A stretch of DNA of 64,000 bases from a phage. Below, piece by piece: positions 16,745 to 23,608 of the stretch (within the stretch, counting starts at the first letter, position 1; each line of letters opens with the position of its first letter). Location: sequence record NC_135729.1; one strand, written 5' to 3'. The notes beneath the pieces are model-generated. The model made no database searches. It worked only from the letters and a program-made list of their open reading frames with translations, and was not told the origin of the DNA. Made by a program: the position numbers and the translations under genes.

Positions 16745-16821
16745 TGGTCTCCACGGAGTGATTCGAACACTCGACCTCCTGATCCCAAATCAGGCGCTCT
16801 ACCAAGCTGAGCTACGCGGAG
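16745..16821 (-). tRNA. tRNA-Pro (anticodon TGG)
   Basis: Hand-folded cloverleaf: C1-G72 acceptor, D-arm GCTC/GAGC, anticodon loop TTTGGGA, T-loop TTCGAAT, encoded CCA. Confidence 0.8.
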
Positions 16822-16832
16822 TATCTACTATT

Positions 16833-16907
16833 TGGTGGCCCTGGGTGGAATTGAACCACCGTCTGGCGATTATGAGTCGCTTGCTTGAACCTTCCAGCTA
16901 CAGGGCC
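16833..16907 (-). tRNA. tRNA-Met (anticodon CAT; initiator, elongator or Ile2 not resolved)
   Basis: Hand-folded cloverleaf, anticodon loop CTCATAA, T-arm GGTGG/CCACC, encoded CCA. Confidence 0.7.
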
Positions 16908-16908
16908 A

Positions 16909-16983
16909 TGGTGCTGATGGCAGGACTTGAACCCGCAACCTATTGATTACAAATCAATTGCACTACCAATTGTGCTACATCAG
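16909..16983 (-). tRNA. tRNA-Thr (anticodon TGT)
   Basis: Hand-folded cloverleaf, D-arm GCAC/GTGC, anticodon loop TTTGTAA, T-loop TTCAAGT, encoded CCA. Confidence 0.8.
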
Positions 16984-16988
16984 CAAAA

Positions 16989-17087
16989 AGGTGCTAGGCG
17001 GTGGAATCGAACCACCTATGTATTCAACGACTACCTCGTCTATTTTCAGGATTAAAAATCCTCGCCCTTGCCAAAGGGCTTACCTAG
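16989..17087 (-). tRNA. aberrant tRNA-like element (about 97 nt; anticodon unresolved)
   Basis: Canonical acceptor stem, D-arm (GCCC/GGGC) and T-arm (GGTGG-TTCGATT-CCACC), but about 30 nt extra between anticodon-like hairpin and T-arm. Confidence 0.35.
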
Positions 17088-17185
17088 CTCAATATGTTGA
17101 CCATGTTGCTAGTCGGCGATGACGACTGTAACATTTGATAATCCGGTTCTGCTTCCGGCTTTCGCTTAATTGCAAGGTCAACAAT

Positions 17186-17276
17186 GTGGCGGAGAGTAAT
17201 GGAATCGAACCATCATCGAGTCATCCTCAACGGGACGGTTTTCAAGACCGCTTGAGCACCATTGCTCCCTACCCTC
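17186..17276 (-). tRNA. tRNA-Ser (anticodon TGA), type II
   Basis: Acceptor GGAGGGT, anticodon loop CTTGAAA, long variable arm, T-loop TTCGATT, encoded CCA. Confidence 0.7.
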
Positions 17277-17392
17277 CTTTATAAATTATACTGATAATGA
17301 CACTGATTTTCGAGCAGTTAGTGACTAGTATAAACGACGATAAATATCAATGCCATTATCTGTATTATTTATGCATCTAAAAAATATAAATT

Positions 17393-17479
17393 TGGTGGGG
17401 AGTGGTGGAGTCGAACCACCCGAGTCGCAATGACAATAGATTTACAGTCTACACCGCTACCTCTACGGGATAACTCCCC
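17393..17479 (-). tRNA. tRNA-Tyr (anticodon GTA), type II
   Basis: Anticodon loop CTGTAAA; variable arm TGTCATTGCGACTCG closely resembles E. coli tRNA-Tyr; T-arm GGTGG/CCACC; CCA encoded. Confidence 0.75.
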
Positions 17480-17483
17480 AATT

Positions 17484-17558
17484 TGGCACCCCGTACTGGA
17501 CTCGAACCAGTGTCAACGGCTTAGAAGGCCGCTGCTTTATCCACTAAGCTAACAGGGC
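17484..17558 (-). tRNA. tRNA-Arg (anticodon TCT)
   Basis: D-arm GCTT/AAGC, anticodon loop CTTCTAA, T-loop TTCGAGT, encoded CCA. Confidence 0.8.
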
Positions 17559-17616: not shown

Positions 17617-17645
17617 ATATTACACTGTTAAGCAAAGTTTGTCAA
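17617..17645 (-). promoter_or_regulatory. sigma70-like promoter upstream of tRNA cluster
   Basis: TTGACA, 17-nt spacer, TAATAT on minus strand, about 55 nt upstream of tRNA-Arg. Confidence 0.55.
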
Positions 17646-20482: not shown

Positions 20483-21037
20483 TTACTCCCCGCTGTCAAT
20501 AGCAAGACTCATTGCAATACGGTATGCCTCTTCTAATGGTAAGAGTCTCCCCCACACATCCCAACCGACATCAAACTGCCTGCCAAACAACTGCTGTGTG
20601 GTTCCGTGAGCATGACCGAACAGTTGGACTGATCCGTGAGGCTTTCTGTTCCACTTTGCAAACTGGTAATGGCTCATACAGATCAAATTCTTGTTGTGGC
20701 GAAGCTCGTAATAATCTACAACCTCATGACCGAACTCTTTCATAATTCTGACAGTCGTCCTTGTGTCATGGTTACCACGAACAAGAATAATATGTCCGTT
20801 CAACATATTTAGAACATCTGGGAGCAATTTGTTGATATTCTTATCATTAGTGCACGCAATATCTCCCAAGTGAAACACAGTGTCTGCAGGTGACACAACA
20901 GAGTTCCACTCGGCGATGATTCCCGCATTCATACTGTCAAGATTGTGATCATACTGAGATCTGTGTTTTTGACATGAATCAAACTCCATGACCCGCTGGT
21001 GGAGAAAGTGTGTGTCGCTTGTTACAAAGTATTTCAT
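20483..21037 (-). CDS. calcineurin-like metallophosphoesterase (putative polynucleotide 3'-phosphatase)
   Basis: Start at Met (MKYFVTSDTHF); metallophosphatase motifs D-T-H, GDI, VRGNHD, GHAH. Confidence 0.7.
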   Translation of the reverse strand: MKYFVTSDTHFLHQRVMEFDSCQKHRSQYDHNLDSMNAGIIAEWNSVVSPADTVFHLGDIACTNDKNINKLLPDVLNMLNGHIILVRGNHDTRTTVRIMKEFGHEVVDYYELRHNKNLICMSHYQFAKWNRKPHGSVQLFGHAHGTTQQLFGRQFDVGWDVWGRLLPLEEAYRIAMSLAIDSGE

Positions 21038-21044
21038 ACATTCC

Positions 21045-21455
21045 TCATTTAAGTTTAATGCAGTTTTTAAGCTGGCGTTCCATACGATCCACAACCTTGT
21101 CTGGAACATCATGAATGCTTTTATTACCGTGGCGGTTTTCAACCACGATCACGGTATAACTATACCCGTGACTGATTGCCATGTCAACATATTCCTGCAC
21201 ATGTTTTTCTTTTGTAAACGTATTACTTACCACGATACGGTCGTATCCCGTACGCATCATATCTTCTACGTTATCTTTGCACCATTTTGCTGCGAGTGTT
21301 ACTTTACTTGCATCCCAGTTGTAATTGCCGTCATCGTCATACCAGAACATGTCGTTCTCAAAATGTGGATACAGACCTTCTAAAGATAGCGCATTTGCCA
21401 GTGTTGATTTGCCAGACCCTGGCAGACCACGCACGATATATAGCATTTTAGACAT
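21045..21455 (-). CDS. P-loop kinase (polynucleotide kinase-like)
   Basis: Start at Met (MSKMLYIVRG) with GGAGGG SD; Walker A GLPGSGKST; immediately upstream of the phosphatase gene. Confidence 0.6.
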   Translation of the reverse strand: MSKMLYIVRGLPGSGKSTLANALSLEGLYPHFENDMFWYDDDGNYNWDASKVTLAAKWCKDNVEDMMRTGYDRIVVSNTFTKEKHVQEYVDMAISHGYSYTVIVVENRHGNKSIHDVPDKVVDRMERQLKNCIKLK

Positions 21456-21515
21456 AGCAACCCTCCGTTTTAATTTTAATGATAGTATACCTAACTGTTT
21501 TGTTAATTTCAAGTG

Positions 21516-21545
21516 TTGACACTAGGTTATTTGTGTGGCATGATA
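21516..21545 (+). promoter_or_regulatory. possible promoter for ligase operon
   Basis: TTGACA at 21516 but only a weak -10 candidate. Confidence 0.3.
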
Positions 21546-21573
21546 GACTGACAAAATGACAAATGAGGAACGT

Positions 21574-22491
21574 ATGATGAAGTATTTTAATGCAGATGAC
21601 CTAGTAGACAAAGGTCTTGTAACCAGTCGGTATTATCCAGATCTTGGATTAAAGATCTATAAATATGCCAGAAAAGTATTCTACAACAATCTGTGGCATT
21701 TGTCTCCGCGTTTACTGGAGTGCCGAGGTATTGTTGTTGGCAATGAGGGGAATGTTGTGGCATGGCCTTTCACAAAAGTATTCAACTTAGGAGAAAACTC
21801 CACCAACCTACCGGACAGTAAACTTGTTACTGCGGTAGAGAAAAAGAACGGATTCCTCGGTGTGGTATCATCTCATAAAGGTGAACTATTGTTCTCAACA
21901 ACCGGGTCTCTTGATTCTCCATATTGTAACCTTGCAAAGGAAACCATCCAAGAGCAATGTGGTAATTTAGATCTTATCAAGAAGGTTATGGGCAATGAAA
22001 ACATGACATTCATGTTTGAAATTTGTCACCCTTCAGATCCGCATATTGTTCAGGAAGATCATGGCGCATATTTGATAGGTTGCAGATATAATGATTCTGG
22101 AATAATGCTACCAGAAGCAGCTTTAGATGGGATTGCCAAATACCTTGGTGCAAAACGTCCTCACACTGTGCGTGAAATTCCGTTCAGCTATGCAAAAGAA
22201 TTAGCTGCAGAAACAAGAGGTGAAGGGTATATGATTCGTAAGCCTTACTACCCTTATGATCTGCAGCTGAAGATCAAGTCTCCATACTATCTGGCACGGA
22301 AGGCCGTAATGAGGGGTAAAGCTTGGAAGATTTGGGATGATGATATCTTTAAACGTGTTGACGAAGAGTTTTACGGCATGGTAAACTTCATTCGTAGCAA
22401 TTACACAGAGGATGTGTGGAACTGCCTCCTGGAGCAGGAACGCCGTGAGATACTTGATTACTATTTCCACAACGAGAACTATATGCAATGA
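21574..22491 (+). CDS. nucleotidyltransferase of ligase family, probably RNA ligase
   Basis: Motif I-like EKKNGF, motif III-like FMFEIC, motif V-like EGYMIRK; divergent from kinase/phosphatase pair; start uncertain (track start 21556). Confidence 0.5.
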   Translation: MMKYFNADDLVDKGLVTSRYYPDLGLKIYKYARKVFYNNLWHLSPRLLECRGIVVGNEGNVVAWPFTKVFNLGENSTNLPDSKLVTAVEKKNGFLGVVSSHKGELLFSTTGSLDSPYCNLAKETIQEQCGNLDLIKKVMGNENMTFMFEICHPSDPHIVQEDHGAYLIGCRYNDSGIMLPEAALDGIAKYLGAKRPHTVREIPFSYAKELAAETRGEGYMIRKPYYPYDLQLKIKSPYYLARKAVMRGKAWKIWDDDIFKRVDEEFYGMVNFIRSNYTEDVWNCLLEQERREILDYYFHNENYMQ

Positions 22492-22838
22492 AGAAGTTGA
22501 TTGTGTGGCTAGATGACTTAAGAGATCCGTCAAATTACGGGCTCCCAGACGCTGTTTGGCTGAAGAATTCCTCCGAGTTTATGGATTTTATTAACGATAA
22601 GGGAAAGCTCTACAGACGCGTTTCTGAGTGGCATATGGACAACGACCTAGGAGAAGTATTCGAAGGATACGATTGCCTATCCATGTTGGAGGAAAAATTT
22701 GTATTCGGTAAGCCTCCCGTGGTTGACAACGTGAAGATTTTCGTACATACTTCTAATCCATCAGCGGCTCGTAAATTCATGCTTGCAGCTGACTCGTTTA
22801 AAAAGTTTGGAATAGAGATTAAACAAAACATCTACTGA
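22488..22838 (+). CDS. hypothetical protein coupled to ligase
   Basis: 116-aa ORF overlapping ligase stop by 4 nt; conserved-looking acidic patches (WLDDLRDP, WHMDNDLG). Confidence 0.4.
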   Translation: MKKLIVWLDDLRDPSNYGLPDAVWLKNSSEFMDFINDKGKLYRRVSEWHMDNDLGEVFEGYDCLSMLEEKFVFGKPPVVDNVKIFVHTSNPSAARKFMLAADSFKKFGIEIKQNIY

Positions 22839-22846
22839 GGGCACTT

Positions 22847-23608
22847 ATGCGACGACTGATTATTATCTCCGGTGCTGGTTTGAGCGCTGAATCTGGTATT
22901 CCCACTTTCCGATCTGGTAGTACTGCAATGTGGGAGAATTTCAGCATAGATGAGGTGTGCAACATCCACACCTTCGCCAAGAACTACTATAAGGTGCATG
23001 ACTTTTACAATGCACGTCGTGTAGCTCTGGGCAGTGTTGATCCTAACCTTGCACATCTCCGGATCGCTGAGTGGTATTCCCGCTGGTCTGGTCGTGTGAT
23101 CAACCTGACCACCAATGTAGATGATTTGCTGGAGCGTGCTGGTGTAAAACATGAAGATATTTTACATGTCCACGGGTATTTGCCTGAAATCACCTATGAA
23201 GATACTGAAGGTAATGATGTAATTAAAAATATAGGGTACACGGAGGTAGATACAGGCAAGTATACCTGGGTTAAGCCCAATGTAGTGTTCTTCGGTGAGG
23301 TTGCTCCTAAGTATACAGACATGTATGACCTGTTGACATCTCTTACCAGCAATGATATGGTGATCCTGGTAGGTTGTTCTAACACAGTTATTAATTTTAA
23401 CTGGGAATTGTTTCCTGCTACTTGTAAAGGCACAAAACTGCTGATTGTAAACAAGTATGATTCGCAGAGTGCAGATGGAAGTGGCATTTCACGTAGCGAC
23501 CTTTATCAATATGAGGATCGCGGGATCCCTGTATGGTTTAACGGTGCTGTTGACGCTTTCTCTGATAAAGCATTTATTGAAACTGTAGAAAACTTTATGG
23601 AACTGTAA
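22847..23608 (+). CDS. Sir2-like NAD-dependent enzyme (sirtuin family)
   Basis: GAGLSAESGIPTFRS Rossmann motif, TTNVDDLLERAG and HVHG catalytic-His motif; no CxxC zinc ribbon seen. Confidence 0.7.
   Translation: MRRLIIISGAGLSAESGIPTFRSGSTAMWENFSIDEVCNIHTFAKNYYKVHDFYNARRVALGSVDPNLAHLRIAEWYSRWSGRVINLTTNVDDLLERAGVKHEDILHVHGYLPEITYEDTEGNDVIKNIGYTEVDTGKYTWVKPNVVFFGEVAPKYTDMYDLLTSLTSNDMVILVGCSNTVINFNWELFPATCKGTKLLIVNKYDSQSADGSGISRSDLYQYEDRGIPVWFNGAVDAFSDKAFIETVENFMEL

What the first reader, a model, noticed from the sequence alone, without database searches (positions are those of the whole stretch)
16989..17087. Aberrant 97-nt tRNA-like element inside the tRNA cluster
Between tRNA-Thr and tRNA-Ser lies a sequence with a well-paired acceptor stem, a canonical D-arm and a canonical T-arm (GGTGG-TTCGATT-CCACC). 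However, the anticodon region forms a 6-bp hairpin with a short loop (AGGATT-TTT-AATCCT), and about 30 extra nucleotides precede the T-arm. It could be a pseudo-tRNA, a tRNA with an insertion, or a tRNA-derived stable RNA with a non-decoding role.
Basis: seen in the sequence. Interest (0 to 1): 0.5.

Follow-up and report, generated by a model that had tools for sequence, protein, structure and literature searches.

The report
Conserved five-armed tRNA-like RNA of rV5-type phages
The odd "tRNA" in this phage's tRNA operon is a real gene kept under selection in a whole subfamily of phages: it folds like a tRNA with an extra arm. In E. coli phages its anticodon arm copies the host lysine tRNA, which several bacterial defence nucleases cut, but its function has not been tested.

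Summary
On the minus strand, 17088 to 16992 (97 nt, plus CC at 16991-16990), lies a tRNA-shaped sequence. It has a 7-bp acceptor stem, a D arm, a canonical T arm, an anticodon-position hairpin and a 31-nt variable region.

The window is an rV5-like phage (Vequintavirus). The element is not a decaying pseudogene. Single-copy homologs occur across the Vequintavirinae but not in bacterial genomes. In 28 distinct copies all 616 stem cells pair, and 11 of 22 pairs show compensatory changes. These include the D-loop/T-loop elbow pair (G:C versus U:A). A family model scores members at 86-118 bits and ordinary tRNAs at 27 bits or less.

It is not a standard tRNA. It has a 6-bp D stem with a 4-nt loop, A8, a 4-bp anticodon stem, and invariant A-rich linkers around a variable hairpin. 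The anticodon loop differs by lineage:
- UCA with A33
- 8-nt NNCC loops
- UUUUUAA in this window

Only Vequintavirus combines a UUU loop, near-identical to the host tRNALys anticodon arm, with discriminator A73. Those are the LysRS identity elements. This genus has no canonical tRNALys, and RNA-repair genes lie 3.5-5 kb away.

Best guess (about 0.45): a tRNALys surrogate or mimic. Main rival: a non-decoding stable RNA.

The parts
16990..17088 (-). The whole tRNA-like gene. G1 is 17088, discriminator A73 is 16992, and C74 C75 are 16991-16990.
   Evidence: ARAGORN gives 16990-17088. Rfam tRNA gives 16992-17088 at 31.0 bits. Family model R1 gives 101.9 bits for 16989-17088.
17082..17088 (-). Acceptor stem, 5' strand GCUAGGU. 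It pairs with 16993-16999.
   Evidence: All 7 pairs are kept in all 28 copies, and 5 of the 7 carry changes on both sides.
17064..17079 (-). D arm GCCCUU-UGGC-AAGGGC: a 6-bp stem and a 4-nt loop. It is preceded by A8 A9 (17080-17081).
   Evidence: 6 pairs are kept and 3 covary. The second G of the loop pairs with T-loop C56, and this pair covaries (G:C in 18 copies, U:A in 10).
17048..17062 (-). Anticodon-position hairpin AGGA-UUUUUAA-UCCU. It is either a 4-bp stem with a 7-nt loop or a 6-bp stem with a 3-nt loop. It is flanked by G (17063) and G (17047).
   Evidence: The closed form is only 2.0 kcal/mol better than the open 7-nt loop, and the innermost pair has probability 0.67. Positions 30-40 match E. 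coli tRNALys at 10 of 11 bases.
17041..17047 (-). 5' linker GAAAAUA. It is single-stranded and nearly invariant across the family.
   Evidence: Alignments A1 and A3.
17026..17040 (-). Variable-region hairpin GACGA-GGUAG-UCGUU.
   Evidence: A hairpin at this place appears in the MFE fold of 20 of the 22 copies folded. Sequence and length vary, and the stem changes are compensatory.
17017..17025 (-). 3' linker GAAUACAUA. AUACAUA is invariant in all copies.
   Evidence: Alignments A1 and A3.
17000..17016 (-). T arm GGUGG-UUCGAUU-CCACC.
16992..16999 (-). Acceptor stem, 3' strand GCCUAGC (16993-16999), and discriminator A73 (16992).
   Evidence: A73 occurs only in the Vequintavirus copies. It is U73 in all 25 copies outside Vequintavirus and Avunavirus.
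16745..17558 (-). The tRNA operon that holds the element: Arg(UCU), Tyr(GUA), Ser(UGA), element, Thr(UGU), Met/Ile(CAU), Pro(UGG).
   Evidence: ARAGORN. Same order in the rV5, EdH4 and AlexBoehm records.
17617..17645 (-). Sigma-70-like promoter TTGACA-17-TAATAT upstream of tRNA-Arg.
   Evidence: Consensus scan. The rV5 record annotates a Sigma70-type promoter P(tRNA) just upstream of tRNA-Arg, in the corresponding place.
21556..22491 (+). T4 Rnl1-family RNA ligase gene. This is context, not part of the RNA.
   Evidence: Pfam PF09511, E = 9.2e-15. Annotated 'RNA ligase' in AlexBoehm.
21045..21512 (-). P-loop kinase, annotated as polynucleotide kinase in a relative. Context.
   Evidence: Pfam AAA_33, E = 2.4e-10. 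Annotation.
20483..21142 (-). Calcineurin-like metallophosphoesterase. Context.
   Evidence: Pfam Metallophos and Metallophos_2. Annotation.

Best explanation
Shown: this is a functional gene for a structured, L-shaped tRNA-like RNA. It belongs to a family found in every Vequintavirinae genus sampled and only in those phages. It sits inside the phage tRNA operon.

Inferred: it is probably excised from the polycistronic precursor like its neighbours. That would mean RNase P at the 5' end, then 3' trimming and CCA completion.

The family scaffold has these features:
- a 7-bp acceptor stem
- a 6-bp D stem with a 4-nt D loop
- a G19:C56-type elbow contact
- a 4-bp anticodon-position stem
- a hairpin in the variable region, framed by invariant A-rich linkers
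- a canonical T arm

Inferred mechanism for this window: in the E. coli-infecting genus Vequintavirus the anticodon arm has become a near-copy of the host tRNALys(UUU) anticodon stem-loop, and the discriminator has become A73. Together these are the bacterial LysRS identity set. The RNA therefore most likely acts as a tRNALys surrogate or mimic, in one of two ways. It may be a Lys-accepting tRNA of unusual build that host tRNALys-directed nucleases handle poorly. Or it may be a decoy or spare substrate for those nucleases. In either case it would work alongside the phage's RNA ligase, kinase and phosphoesterase genes nearby.

That it is a real, constrained RNA gene is close to certain. The Lys-related role is an inference.
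For: Structure and selection:
- 28 distinct copies from six named genera plus metagenomes. 616 of 616 stem cells pair, and 11 of 22 pairs change on both sides. No shuffle reaches the observed values, and slid controls pair only 34-50% of cells (22-copy version).
- The tertiary D-loop/T-loop pair switches G:C to U:A.
- All 22 copies tested fold by MFE with the same acceptor, D, anticodon-position and T arms. 20 of them also show a single hairpin in the variable region.
- Family model R1 scores members at 86-118 bits (window 101.9). Every ordinary tRNA, including the class II Ser and Tyr tRNAs, scores 27 bits or less. There is one copy per genome.

Phage-specific:
- None in 185,579 bacterial species genomes.
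- None in 5,426 E. coli genomes.

Lysine link:
- Anticodon-arm positions 30-40 are GAUUUUUAAUC here and GACUUUUAAUC in E. coli tRNALys.
- A73 occurs only in Vequintavirus copies. All 25 copies outside Vequintavirus and Avunavirus have U73-CCA.
- The bacterial Lys identity set is A73 plus U34, U35, U36 (PMC9976931).
- Other genera carry canonical tRNALys(UUU) next to the element. Vequintavirus has only six canonical tRNAs and no tRNALys (PMC3606486).
- The PARIS-resistant T5 tRNALys also has a mismatched 27:43 pair and G29-C41 at the AriB cut site (40/41), as this element does.
- The open 7-nt loop costs only 2.0 kcal/mol.

Context:
- Genes for an Rnl1-family RNA ligase, a kinase and a phosphoesterase lie 3.5-5 kb from the operon.
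- Host tRNALys is a reported target of PrrC, PARIS and a Schlafen nuclease (PMC10264068, PMC11464382, PMC13056530).
Against: - One base is missing at the 26/27 junction. The anticodon stem has 4 pairs plus a G.G mismatch. Position 8 is A, not U. The variable region has 7- and 9-nt linkers, unlike any known decoder.
- The unmodified RNA prefers the closed 3-nt loop.
- The sister genus Avunavirus has UAU with U73 or C73, which fits no aminoacyl-tRNA synthetase identity set.
- The 3' end is not conserved in this clade (ACCU, ACAU, UACA, CACA) and CCA is not encoded.
- Phage V18 has lost the 5' two-thirds of the element by a deletion, so it is dispensable in culture.
- The most conserved features of the family, the linkers, are not explained by Lys decoding.
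- There are no expression, charging or cleavage data.
- The match to the host anticodon arm was noticed after the fact. My estimate of chance is about 0.004-0.01.
Confidence: 0.45

Rival explanations
1. It is a non-decoding stable tRNA-like RNA. Its function lies in the invariant linkers and the variable-region hairpin, for example binding a phage or host protein. The tRNA shape would serve only for processing and stability. The Lys-like loop of Vequintavirus would be incidental.
For: - The anticodon loop is the least conserved part across genera: 7-nt YAUCAAA with A33, an 8-nt loop CC-N-N-CC-AG, GUGAUA, UUUUUAA and UUUAUAA.
- U33 is absent in most lineages.
- The linkers GAAAAUA and AAUACAUA are invariant.
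- Other genera keep canonical Lys and Gly tRNAs as well as the element.
- There are precedents. The T5 record annotates 'stable RNA with unknown functions' genes inside its tRNA region. B. cereus tRNAOther is a pseudo-tRNA that acts outside translation (PMC3399842).
Against: - G1:C72, C2:G71 and U73-CCA are almost invariant while positions 3-6 covary, as expected if the acceptor end is read by an enzyme.
- Discriminator and loop change together in Vequintavirus (A73 with UUU).
- The 8-nt-loop lineages carry U73, G1:C72, C2:G71, C35 and C36. That is most of the bacterial GlyRS identity set.
- No partner is known.
- No excess of sequences complementary to the linkers in the window.
Confidence: 0.35
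2. It is a processing or stability module. A tRNA-shaped punctuation mark would direct RNase P and 3' processing, or protect neighbouring RNAs in the polycistronic transcript, with no role for the released RNA.
For: It lies 5 nt upstream of tRNA-Thr and follows a structured 98-nt spacer. It is always embedded in the tRNA operon.
Against: - Punctuation needs only an acceptor/T minihelix. It does not explain invariant linkers, a maintained elbow pair, the anticodon-position hairpin or an encoded U73-CCA.
- Neighbouring tRNAs are themselves RNase P substrates.
- Its neighbours differ between genera.
Confidence: 0.08
3. It is a recoding tRNA lineage: an opal suppressor (UCA) in some genera, a quadruplet or frameshift reader (8-nt loop) in others, and in this window a mis-charging AAA reader.
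For: - Seven distinct copies (Hena1, SNUABM56 and five uncultured contigs, L026, L046, L047, L054, L057) have UCA at the anticodon position. Hena1's copy is annotated tRNA-sup(tca).
- Two such contigs also carry a CUA-anticodon tRNA.
- The D arm resembles that of tRNASec.
Against: - A33 replaces the near-universal U33 in the UCA copies.
- tRNA-Sec model scores are 23-39 bits against a gathering score of 47, no better than ordinary class II tRNAs.
- The acceptor/T helix is 7/5, not 8/5.
- The window copy has UUU, not a stop anticodon.
- No recoding sites were sought or found.
Confidence: 0.07
4. It is a dying tRNA gene, or a tRNA that picked up a neutral insertion, retained only by linkage.
For: V18 lost it by deletion. 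The 3' end is variable in Vequintavirus and Avunavirus.
Against: 100% pairing with 11 covarying pairs across genera. All stem differences between rV5 and Av-05 are compensatory or G.U-neutral. It is retained in a genus that shed most of its tRNAs.
Confidence: 0.03

Closest known systems
Canonical bacterial/phage tRNA, in particular tRNALys(UUU) (Rfam RF00005)
   Same: It shares a 7-bp acceptor stem, a T arm with UUCGAUU and a G19:C56 elbow. In this window it also has a 7-nt-capable loop UU-UUU-AA with U33 and A37, and A73. It lies in a tRNA operon. It reaches 31.0 bits against a gathering score of 29.
   Different: It has A8 instead of U8, and a 6-bp D stem with a 4-nt loop. One base is missing at 26/27, leaving 4 anticodon-stem pairs. 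The variable region is 31 nt with long conserved linkers. The anticodon is not conserved among homologs. No long-arm tRNALys is known (own knowledge).
Class II tRNAs (Ser, Leu, Tyr) and tRNASec (RF01852)
   Same: It has an extra arm between the anticodon and T arms. The 6-bp D stem with a 4-nt D loop, and the loss of U8, are tRNASec-like. Some relatives have UCA.
   Different: The extra hairpin is held by 7- and 9-nt single-stranded linkers rather than 0-2 nt. The acceptor/T helix is 7/5, not 8/5. Scores are below the tRNA-Sec gathering score (23-39 against 47). The family model gives class II tRNAs 27 bits or less.
Stable RNAs of unknown function encoded in phage tRNA clusters: T5 rna2H and rnaIV; T4 RNA C and D (own knowledge)
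   Same: They are non-tRNA stable RNA genes embedded among phage tRNA genes, presumably matured by the same enzymes, with unknown function.
   Different: No sequence relationship was found. The 63 nt of T5 rnaIV that I read shows no T arm. Those RNAs are defined only operationally.
Phage tRNAs that evade or replace targets of host tRNases, such as the PARIS-resistant T5 tRNALys (PMC11464382), the phage tRNATyr that counters retron-Eco7 (PMC11555353), and the anticodon-loop variant hypothesis (PMC10264068)
   Same: It has a Lys-type anticodon loop on an altered anticodon stem: a mismatched 27:43 pair and G29-C41 at the AriB cut site, as in T5 tRNALys. The phage also encodes RNA-repair enzymes.
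   Different: Those are otherwise canonical 76-78-nt tRNAs with shown function. Nothing has been tested for this one, and its body is non-canonical.
Non-decoding pseudo-tRNAs such as B. cereus tRNAOther (PMC3399842)
   Same: Gene finders call it 'tRNA-Other', the anticodon arm is aberrant, and a role outside translation is possible.
   Different: tRNAOther is chromosomal, about 74 nt, part of a longer regulatory transcript and unrelated in sequence.

Membership tests
Canonical tRNA (RF00005) | Score at or above the curated gathering score | tested here: inconclusive
   31.0 bits against 29 in the sensitive run. Not listed in the default gathering run. Homologs in other genera score best against tRNA-Sec, below its threshold.
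Canonical tRNA (RF00005) | 5-bp anticodon stem and a 7-nt loop with U33 and purine 37, conserved among orthologs | tested here: not met
   The stem has 4 pairs plus a G.G mismatch. The window copy can form UU-UUU-AA, but relatives have A33, 8-nt or 6-nt loops.
Canonical tRNA (RF00005) | Acceptor stem, T arm and D-loop/T-loop elbow (G19:C56) | tested here: met
   All pairs are kept. The 19:56 pair covaries G:C with U:A.
Canonical tRNA (RF00005) | U8 and a 4-bp D stem with a 7-11-nt loop | tested here: not met
   A8 is invariant. The 6-bp stem and 4-nt loop are kept in all copies.
tRNALys (functional identity) | A73 and U34 U35 U36 (bacterial LysRS determinants, PMC9976931) | tested here: met
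   Present in all six Vequintavirus copies. Absent from all other lineages.
tRNALys (functional identity) | Lysylation and decoding of AAA/AAG | not testable with these tools
   This needs charging assays, tRNA sequencing or suppression tests.
Class II tRNA (Ser/Leu/Tyr) | Variable arm joined by 0-2 unpaired bases, with the matching identity set (G73 for Ser; A73 with GUA for Tyr; A73 with a core of A15:U48 and G18 G19 for Leu) | tested here: not met
   The linkers are 7 and 9 nt. The anticodon is UUU. The family model scores the Ser and Tyr tRNAs at 26.6 and 24.8 bits, against 101.9 for the element.
tRNASec (RF01852) | 8/5 acceptor/T helix, UCA anticodon, score at or above 47 bits | tested here: not met
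   The helix is 7/5. The window copy has UUU. Relatives score 23-39 bits, a range that ordinary class II tRNAs also reach.
tRNASec (RF01852) | 6-bp D stem with a 4-nt D loop | tested here: met
   GCCCUU-UGGC-AAGGGC, with all six pairs kept and three covarying.
tmRNA | tRNA-like domain with G3.U70, a tag reading frame and pseudoknots | tested here: not met
   ARAGORN finds no tmRNA. Rfam gives only 11-16-bit matches to permuted tmRNA, and elsewhere in the cluster. Pair 3:70 is U-A.
Y RNA-like (YrlA, RF02553) | Score at or above 69 bits; a Ro-binding stem plus a tRNA-like module | tested here: not met
   17-25 bits, and the matches span neighbouring tRNAs.
allo-tRNA (8/4 or 9/3; PMC5389517) | 12-bp acceptor branch built as 8/4 or 9/3 | tested here: not met
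   The branch is 7/5 in all 28 copies.
Vequintavirinae five-armed tRNA-like RNA (family defined here, model R1) | 7/5 branch, 6-bp/4-nt D arm, G + 4-bp stem + G, linkers GAAAA..UA and AUACAUA around a hairpin, one copy inside the tRNA operon | tested here: met
   101.9 bits, E = 1e-24. The next non-member scores 27 bits or less. All features are present.

The most novel reading that the evidence does not exclude
The family is a new architectural class of chargeable tRNA. It would be a five-armed scaffold with its own conserved extra domain, whose anticodon and discriminator switch together between phage lineages: UCA/U73, NCC/U73 with the GlyRS acceptor signature, and UUU/A73. The scaffold would then be re-targeted to whichever host tRNA is under attack or needs to be mimicked. 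The window copy would be the first long-arm tRNALys, built so that host anticodon nucleases cut it poorly, or so that the phage RNA ligase can repair it.
Probability: 0.2. Interest if true: 0.85.

Novelty: new variant of a known kind. Interest (0 to 1): 0.6.

Why it matters
Phage tRNAs are now seen as counter-measures against bacterial tRNA-cutting defence systems. Here, a well-studied group of therapeutic coliphages, together with their Salmonella, Klebsiella, Cronobacter and Erwinia relatives, all keep a tRNA-shaped RNA that no gene finder names consistently.

GenBank records call it tRNA-OTHER, tRNA-Lys or plain tRNA. The relative Hena1's copy is called tRNA-TERM. Other records overlay it with hypothetical proteins, and many leave it unannotated.

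Its structure is under strong selection. It has a conserved extra domain. Its anticodon arm changes with the phage genus and its hosts.

If it is charged, it would extend the known range of tRNA architecture. If it is a mimic or decoy, it would be an RNA-based anti-defence tool. Either outcome can be tested directly with phages and strains already in collections, namely BASEL Vequintavirus phages and PrrC+ or PARIS+ hosts. At the least, the family model allows consistent annotation.

Tried and rejected
1. Rfam search of the window and of 11 related loci. It gave only weak tRNA and tRNA-Sec matches, and no tmRNA, YrlA or other family.
2. tRNASec membership. Rejected because of the 7/5 helix and sub-threshold scores that ordinary class II tRNAs also reach.
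3. ARAGORN's 4-base anticodon 'atcc' (stem AUUUU/AAAAU). Rejected because those bases lie in the covarying 3' strand of the hairpin, and that stem is not conserved in relatives.
4. A bacterial origin. Two pattern scans of 185,579 species genomes gave 0 hits and 72 hits. None of the 72 had the rest of the element; those I read were an 11-copy repeat in Rodentibacter (probably an insertion sequence) and one spurious T-arm-like match. BLAST against 5,426 E. coli genomes found nothing.
5. Gene conversion from the subfamily's own tRNALys. The anticodon stems of the canonical tRNALys of BIS47 and L026 do not match AGGA/UCCU.
6. An antisense role for the conserved linkers. Complementary sites in the window are at chance level. 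The host genome was not tested.
7. Protein coding. Only short ORFs of 28-59 aa overlap the element. Family members differ in length by steps that are not multiples of 3 (100, 104, 107-110 nt), and substitutions are compensatory for RNA pairing.
8. Literature. The rV5 genome paper counts six tRNAs and does not mention the element. Searches on rV5/Vequintavirinae tRNAs, tRNA-like RNAs in phage clusters, frameshift-suppressor tRNAs and phage tRNA versus anticodon nucleases found no description of it.
9. Covariation between the anticodon-position loop and the variable region, as a sign of a pseudoknot. None was seen by eye, and there is too little variation to test it.

Full report
**What is there**

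The seven ARAGORN calls at 16745-17558 all lie on the minus strand. In order they are Arg(UCU), Tyr(GUA), Ser(UGA), an odd call 'tRNA-???(atcc)' at 16990-17088, Thr(UGU), Met/Ile(CAU) and Pro(UGG).

Read 5' to 3', the odd RNA is GCUAGGU-AA-GCCCUUUGGCAAGGGC-G-AGGAUUUUUAAUCCU-GAAAAUA-GACGAGGUAGUCGUU-GAAUACAUA-GGUGGUUCGAUUCCACC-GCCUAGC-A-CC. G1 is base 17088 and the discriminator is 16992. Everything else in the description holds.

The minimum-energy fold is a five-armed cloverleaf at -37.0 kcal/mol, z = -3.8 against shuffles. Rfam's tRNA model reaches 31.0 bits against a gathering score of 29, only in the sensitive run. It aligns a UUU anticodon, a missing base at 26/27 and a 26-nt insertion.

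**Where the window comes from, and how databases treat the element**

The region is 99% identical to Escherichia phages EdH4, HdK5, nomo and rV5, which belong to the genus Vequintavirus. Annotation of the element is inconsistent:
- The rV5 record and the rV5 genome paper list six tRNAs and omit it (PMC3606486).
- ARAGORN-based records call it tRNA-OTHER.
- BASEL-collection records call it tRNA-Lys recognising AAA, 97 nt.
- Other records overlay it with hypothetical proteins.

**It is a conserved family**

BLAST and pattern scans found homologs in Vequintavirus, Avunavirus, Seunavirus, Mydovirus, Henunavirus and uncultured contigs. This gave 32 distinct sequences.

There is always one copy, and it always lies inside the tRNA operon.

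Nothing was found in 185,579 bacterial species genomes or in 5,426 E. coli genomes.

**Covariation**

On 28 distinct copies, 616 of 616 stem cells form standard pairs. Eleven of 22 pairs carry changes on both sides. No shuffle reaches the observed covariation, and sliding the partners drops pairing to 34-50% (22-copy version).

The single tertiary pair I added links the second G of the D loop to the C of the T loop UUCGAUU. It switches cleanly to U:A (UGUC with UUAGAUU) in 10 copies. So the elbow of an L-shaped fold is also under selection.

All 22 copies that I folded give the same acceptor, D, anticodon-position and T arms by MFE. Twenty of them also place a single hairpin in the variable region. 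That hairpin varies in length and sequence, with compensatory stem changes.

Within the rV5/Av-05 clade, each of the few stem differences either is compensated or swaps U-A for U.G.

A covariance model of the family scores members at 86-118 bits (window 101.9). Every ordinary tRNA, including the long-arm Ser and Tyr tRNAs, scores 27 bits or less.

A decaying pseudogene is excluded.

**How it differs from a tRNA**

- A8 is invariant where tRNAs have U8.
- The D arm is a 6-bp stem with a 4-nt loop, as in tRNASec.
- The anticodon-position stem has four pairs bracketed by G and G, which is one layer short of a tRNA.
- The extra hairpin is held by single-stranded linkers, GAAAA(A)UA and (G)AAUACAUA. 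These are among the most conserved bases of the molecule.

The element is not tRNASec. The acceptor/T helix is 7/5, and scores are 23-39 bits against 47, a range that ordinary class II tRNAs also reach. It is also not tmRNA, YrlA or an allo-tRNA.

**The anticodon position changes by lineage**

| Lineage | Loop | Discriminator and 3' end |
|---|---|---|
| Henunavirus and five uncultured contigs | 7 nt, [C/U/A]AUCAA[A/G]: UCA preceded by A33 | U73-CCA |
| Seunavirus and Mydovirus | 8 nt, CC-N-N-CC-AG (or 6 nt closed by C:G) | U73-CCA |
| One contig (L044) | GUGAUA | U73-CCA |
| Vequintavirus | UUUUUAA | A73 |
| Avunavirus | UUUAUAA | U73 or C73 |

All 25 copies outside Vequintavirus and Avunavirus have U73-CCA, and 23 of them also have G1:C72 and C2:G71. 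L054 has A1:U72 and L044 has G1.U72. With the CC of the 8-nt loops taken as C35 C36, this is most of the bacterial GlyRS identity set (PMC9976931). However, U33 is not conserved in those copies.

Only Vequintavirus has A73, and only Vequintavirus has UUU. Together these are the bacterial LysRS set.

Positions 30-40 of the window copy (GAUUUUUAAUC) differ at one base from E. coli tRNALys (GACUUUUAAUC; that sequence comes from PMC11464382). My rough arithmetic puts such a match to any host tRNA at about 0.004-0.01 by chance. I noticed the match after the fact.

From established knowledge of tRNALys, a t6A37 modification would be expected to open the loop, and the U36-A37-A38 context for that modification is present.

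**Context**

The other genera carry 17-24 tRNAs, including canonical Lys(UUU), Lys(CUU) and Gly(UCC), besides the element. Vequintavirus has shrunk to six canonical tRNAs, has no tRNALys, and has kept the element.

A sigma-70-like promoter upstream of tRNA-Arg lies where the rV5 record annotates its tRNA promoter.

Between 3.5 and 5 kb from the operon lie three genes:
- a T4 Rnl1-family RNA ligase (PF09511)
- a P-loop kinase, annotated as polynucleotide kinase in a relative
- a metallophosphoesterase

By established knowledge of T4, this is the kind of enzyme set that repairs tRNALys after PrrC cleavage.

Host tRNALys(UUU) is a reported target of PrrC, of PARIS AriB and of a bacterial Schlafen (PMC10264068, PMC11464382, PMC13056530).

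The PARIS-resistant T5 tRNALys has a mismatched 27:43 pair and G29-C41 at the AriB cut site. So does this element.

**Most likely reading**

Shown:
- It is a real RNA gene under strong structural selection.
- It belongs to a phage-only family.
- It is tRNA-shaped and carries an extra domain.

Inferred:
- It is excised with the tRNAs.
- In Vequintavirus it acts as a tRNALys surrogate or mimic. It would either be chargeable and poorly cut by host nucleases, or be a decoy or spare substrate, acting together with the repair enzymes. I give this about 0.45.

Points against:
- The body is non-canonical.
- Avunavirus has the UAU/U73 state.
- The 3' end is unconserved in this clade.
- V18 has a natural deletion that fuses the 5' half of tRNA-Tyr to the 3' third of the element.
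- The family-wide invariants, the linkers, are not explained by Lys decoding.

The main rival, at about 0.35, is a non-decoding stable RNA that works through those linkers. There are precedents in the 'stable RNA with unknown functions' genes of the T5 tRNA region and in B. cereus tRNAOther (PMC3399842).

Lesser rivals are a processing module, a recoding tRNA lineage and a dying gene.

**Novelty and score**

The existence of the call is visible in GenBank. I found no description of the family, its covariation, its extra domain or its lineage-specific anticodon arm in the papers searched.

I class it as a new variant of a known kind, meaning tRNA-like RNAs or atypical phage tRNAs. Interest is 0.6.

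Noticed in passing
window 17104-17171 (minus strand), within the 98-nt spacer 17089-17186: A core of about 70 nt (AATTAAGCGAA..CCGGAAGCAGAACCGGAT..CGTCATCGCCG) is 87% identical to phage lambda 44866-44934, between orf-64 and S. It is also 87% identical to phage P7 72368-72432. It is unannotated in all three. In P7, as here, it directly follows a tRNA-Ser(UGA) gene. P7's copy of that gene is unannotated but is called by ARAGORN. The spacer folds better than shuffles (z = -3.2). It could be a shared tRNA-cassette flank or a small RNA.
   Followed up: partly
window 17278-17392 (minus strand): The 115-nt gap between tRNA-Tyr and tRNA-Ser folds into a long hairpin (z = -4.3, 0 of 200 shuffles as good). 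Its downstream end is overlapped by a promoter-like site, TCGAAA-17-TATAAT (17313-17285).
   Followed up: partly
window 20483-23608: There is an RNA-repair-like gene set: a metallophosphoesterase (20483-21142, minus), a P-loop kinase (21045-21512, minus) and a T4 Rnl1-family RNA ligase (21556-22491, plus). Next to it lies a Sir2-family protein (22847-23608, plus).
   Followed up: partly
L023 (Escherichia phage V18, NC_041937) 446-540: A deletion has fused the 5' half of tRNA-Tyr to the last third of the element. It removes tRNA-Ser and the spacers. This is a natural knockout of the element.
   Followed up: partly
window 16833-16907 (minus strand): The CAU-anticodon tRNA is called Met by ARAGORN and in the rV5 record. 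BASEL-collection records call it tRNA-Ile reading ATA, that is, a lysidine-type tRNAIle2. Its identity is unresolved.
   Followed up: no
L024 2598-2672 and 928-997; L032 5383-5457; L053 3313-3387; L042 4166-4240: Mydovirus tRNA clusters hold further aberrant calls: 'tRNA-???(ga)' directly upstream of the element, and 'tRNA-???(gt)'. GenBank labels the first tRNA-Ser. In GAP31 and L043 the same slot holds tRNA-Arg(gcg), and in Seunavirus it holds tRNA-Ile(gat).
   Followed up: no
L047 7862-7934 and L057 2791-2865: Two uncultured relatives whose element has UCA at the anticodon position also carry a canonical-size tRNA with a CUA (amber-reading) anticodon. ARAGORN calls it tRNA-Pyl. This may hint at stop-codon read-through in that lineage.
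   Followed up: no
L004 (Av-05) 1498-1580: An 83-nt stretch scores 29.6 bits against the tRNA-Sec model but is not called by ARAGORN. It may be another long-arm tRNA-like gene.
   Followed up: no
L005 1606-1796, L016 522-703 and the equivalent regions of other Seunavirus, Mydovirus and Henunavirus loci: The 180-190 nt between the element and tRNA-Leu(UAA) is partly conserved between genera (for example GTGCATTAGCTCAGATTATTTGA in Seunavirus, with a similar stretch in Av-05). It begins like the 5' part of a tRNA. It is unannotated, or covered by short hypothetical ORFs.
   Followed up: no
L063 13141-13458 (AlexBoehm bas56_0150): This Vequintavirus relative is annotated with a ribosome hibernation factor gene. 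That is another translation-directed function in these phages. I did not locate its counterpart in the window.
   Followed up: no
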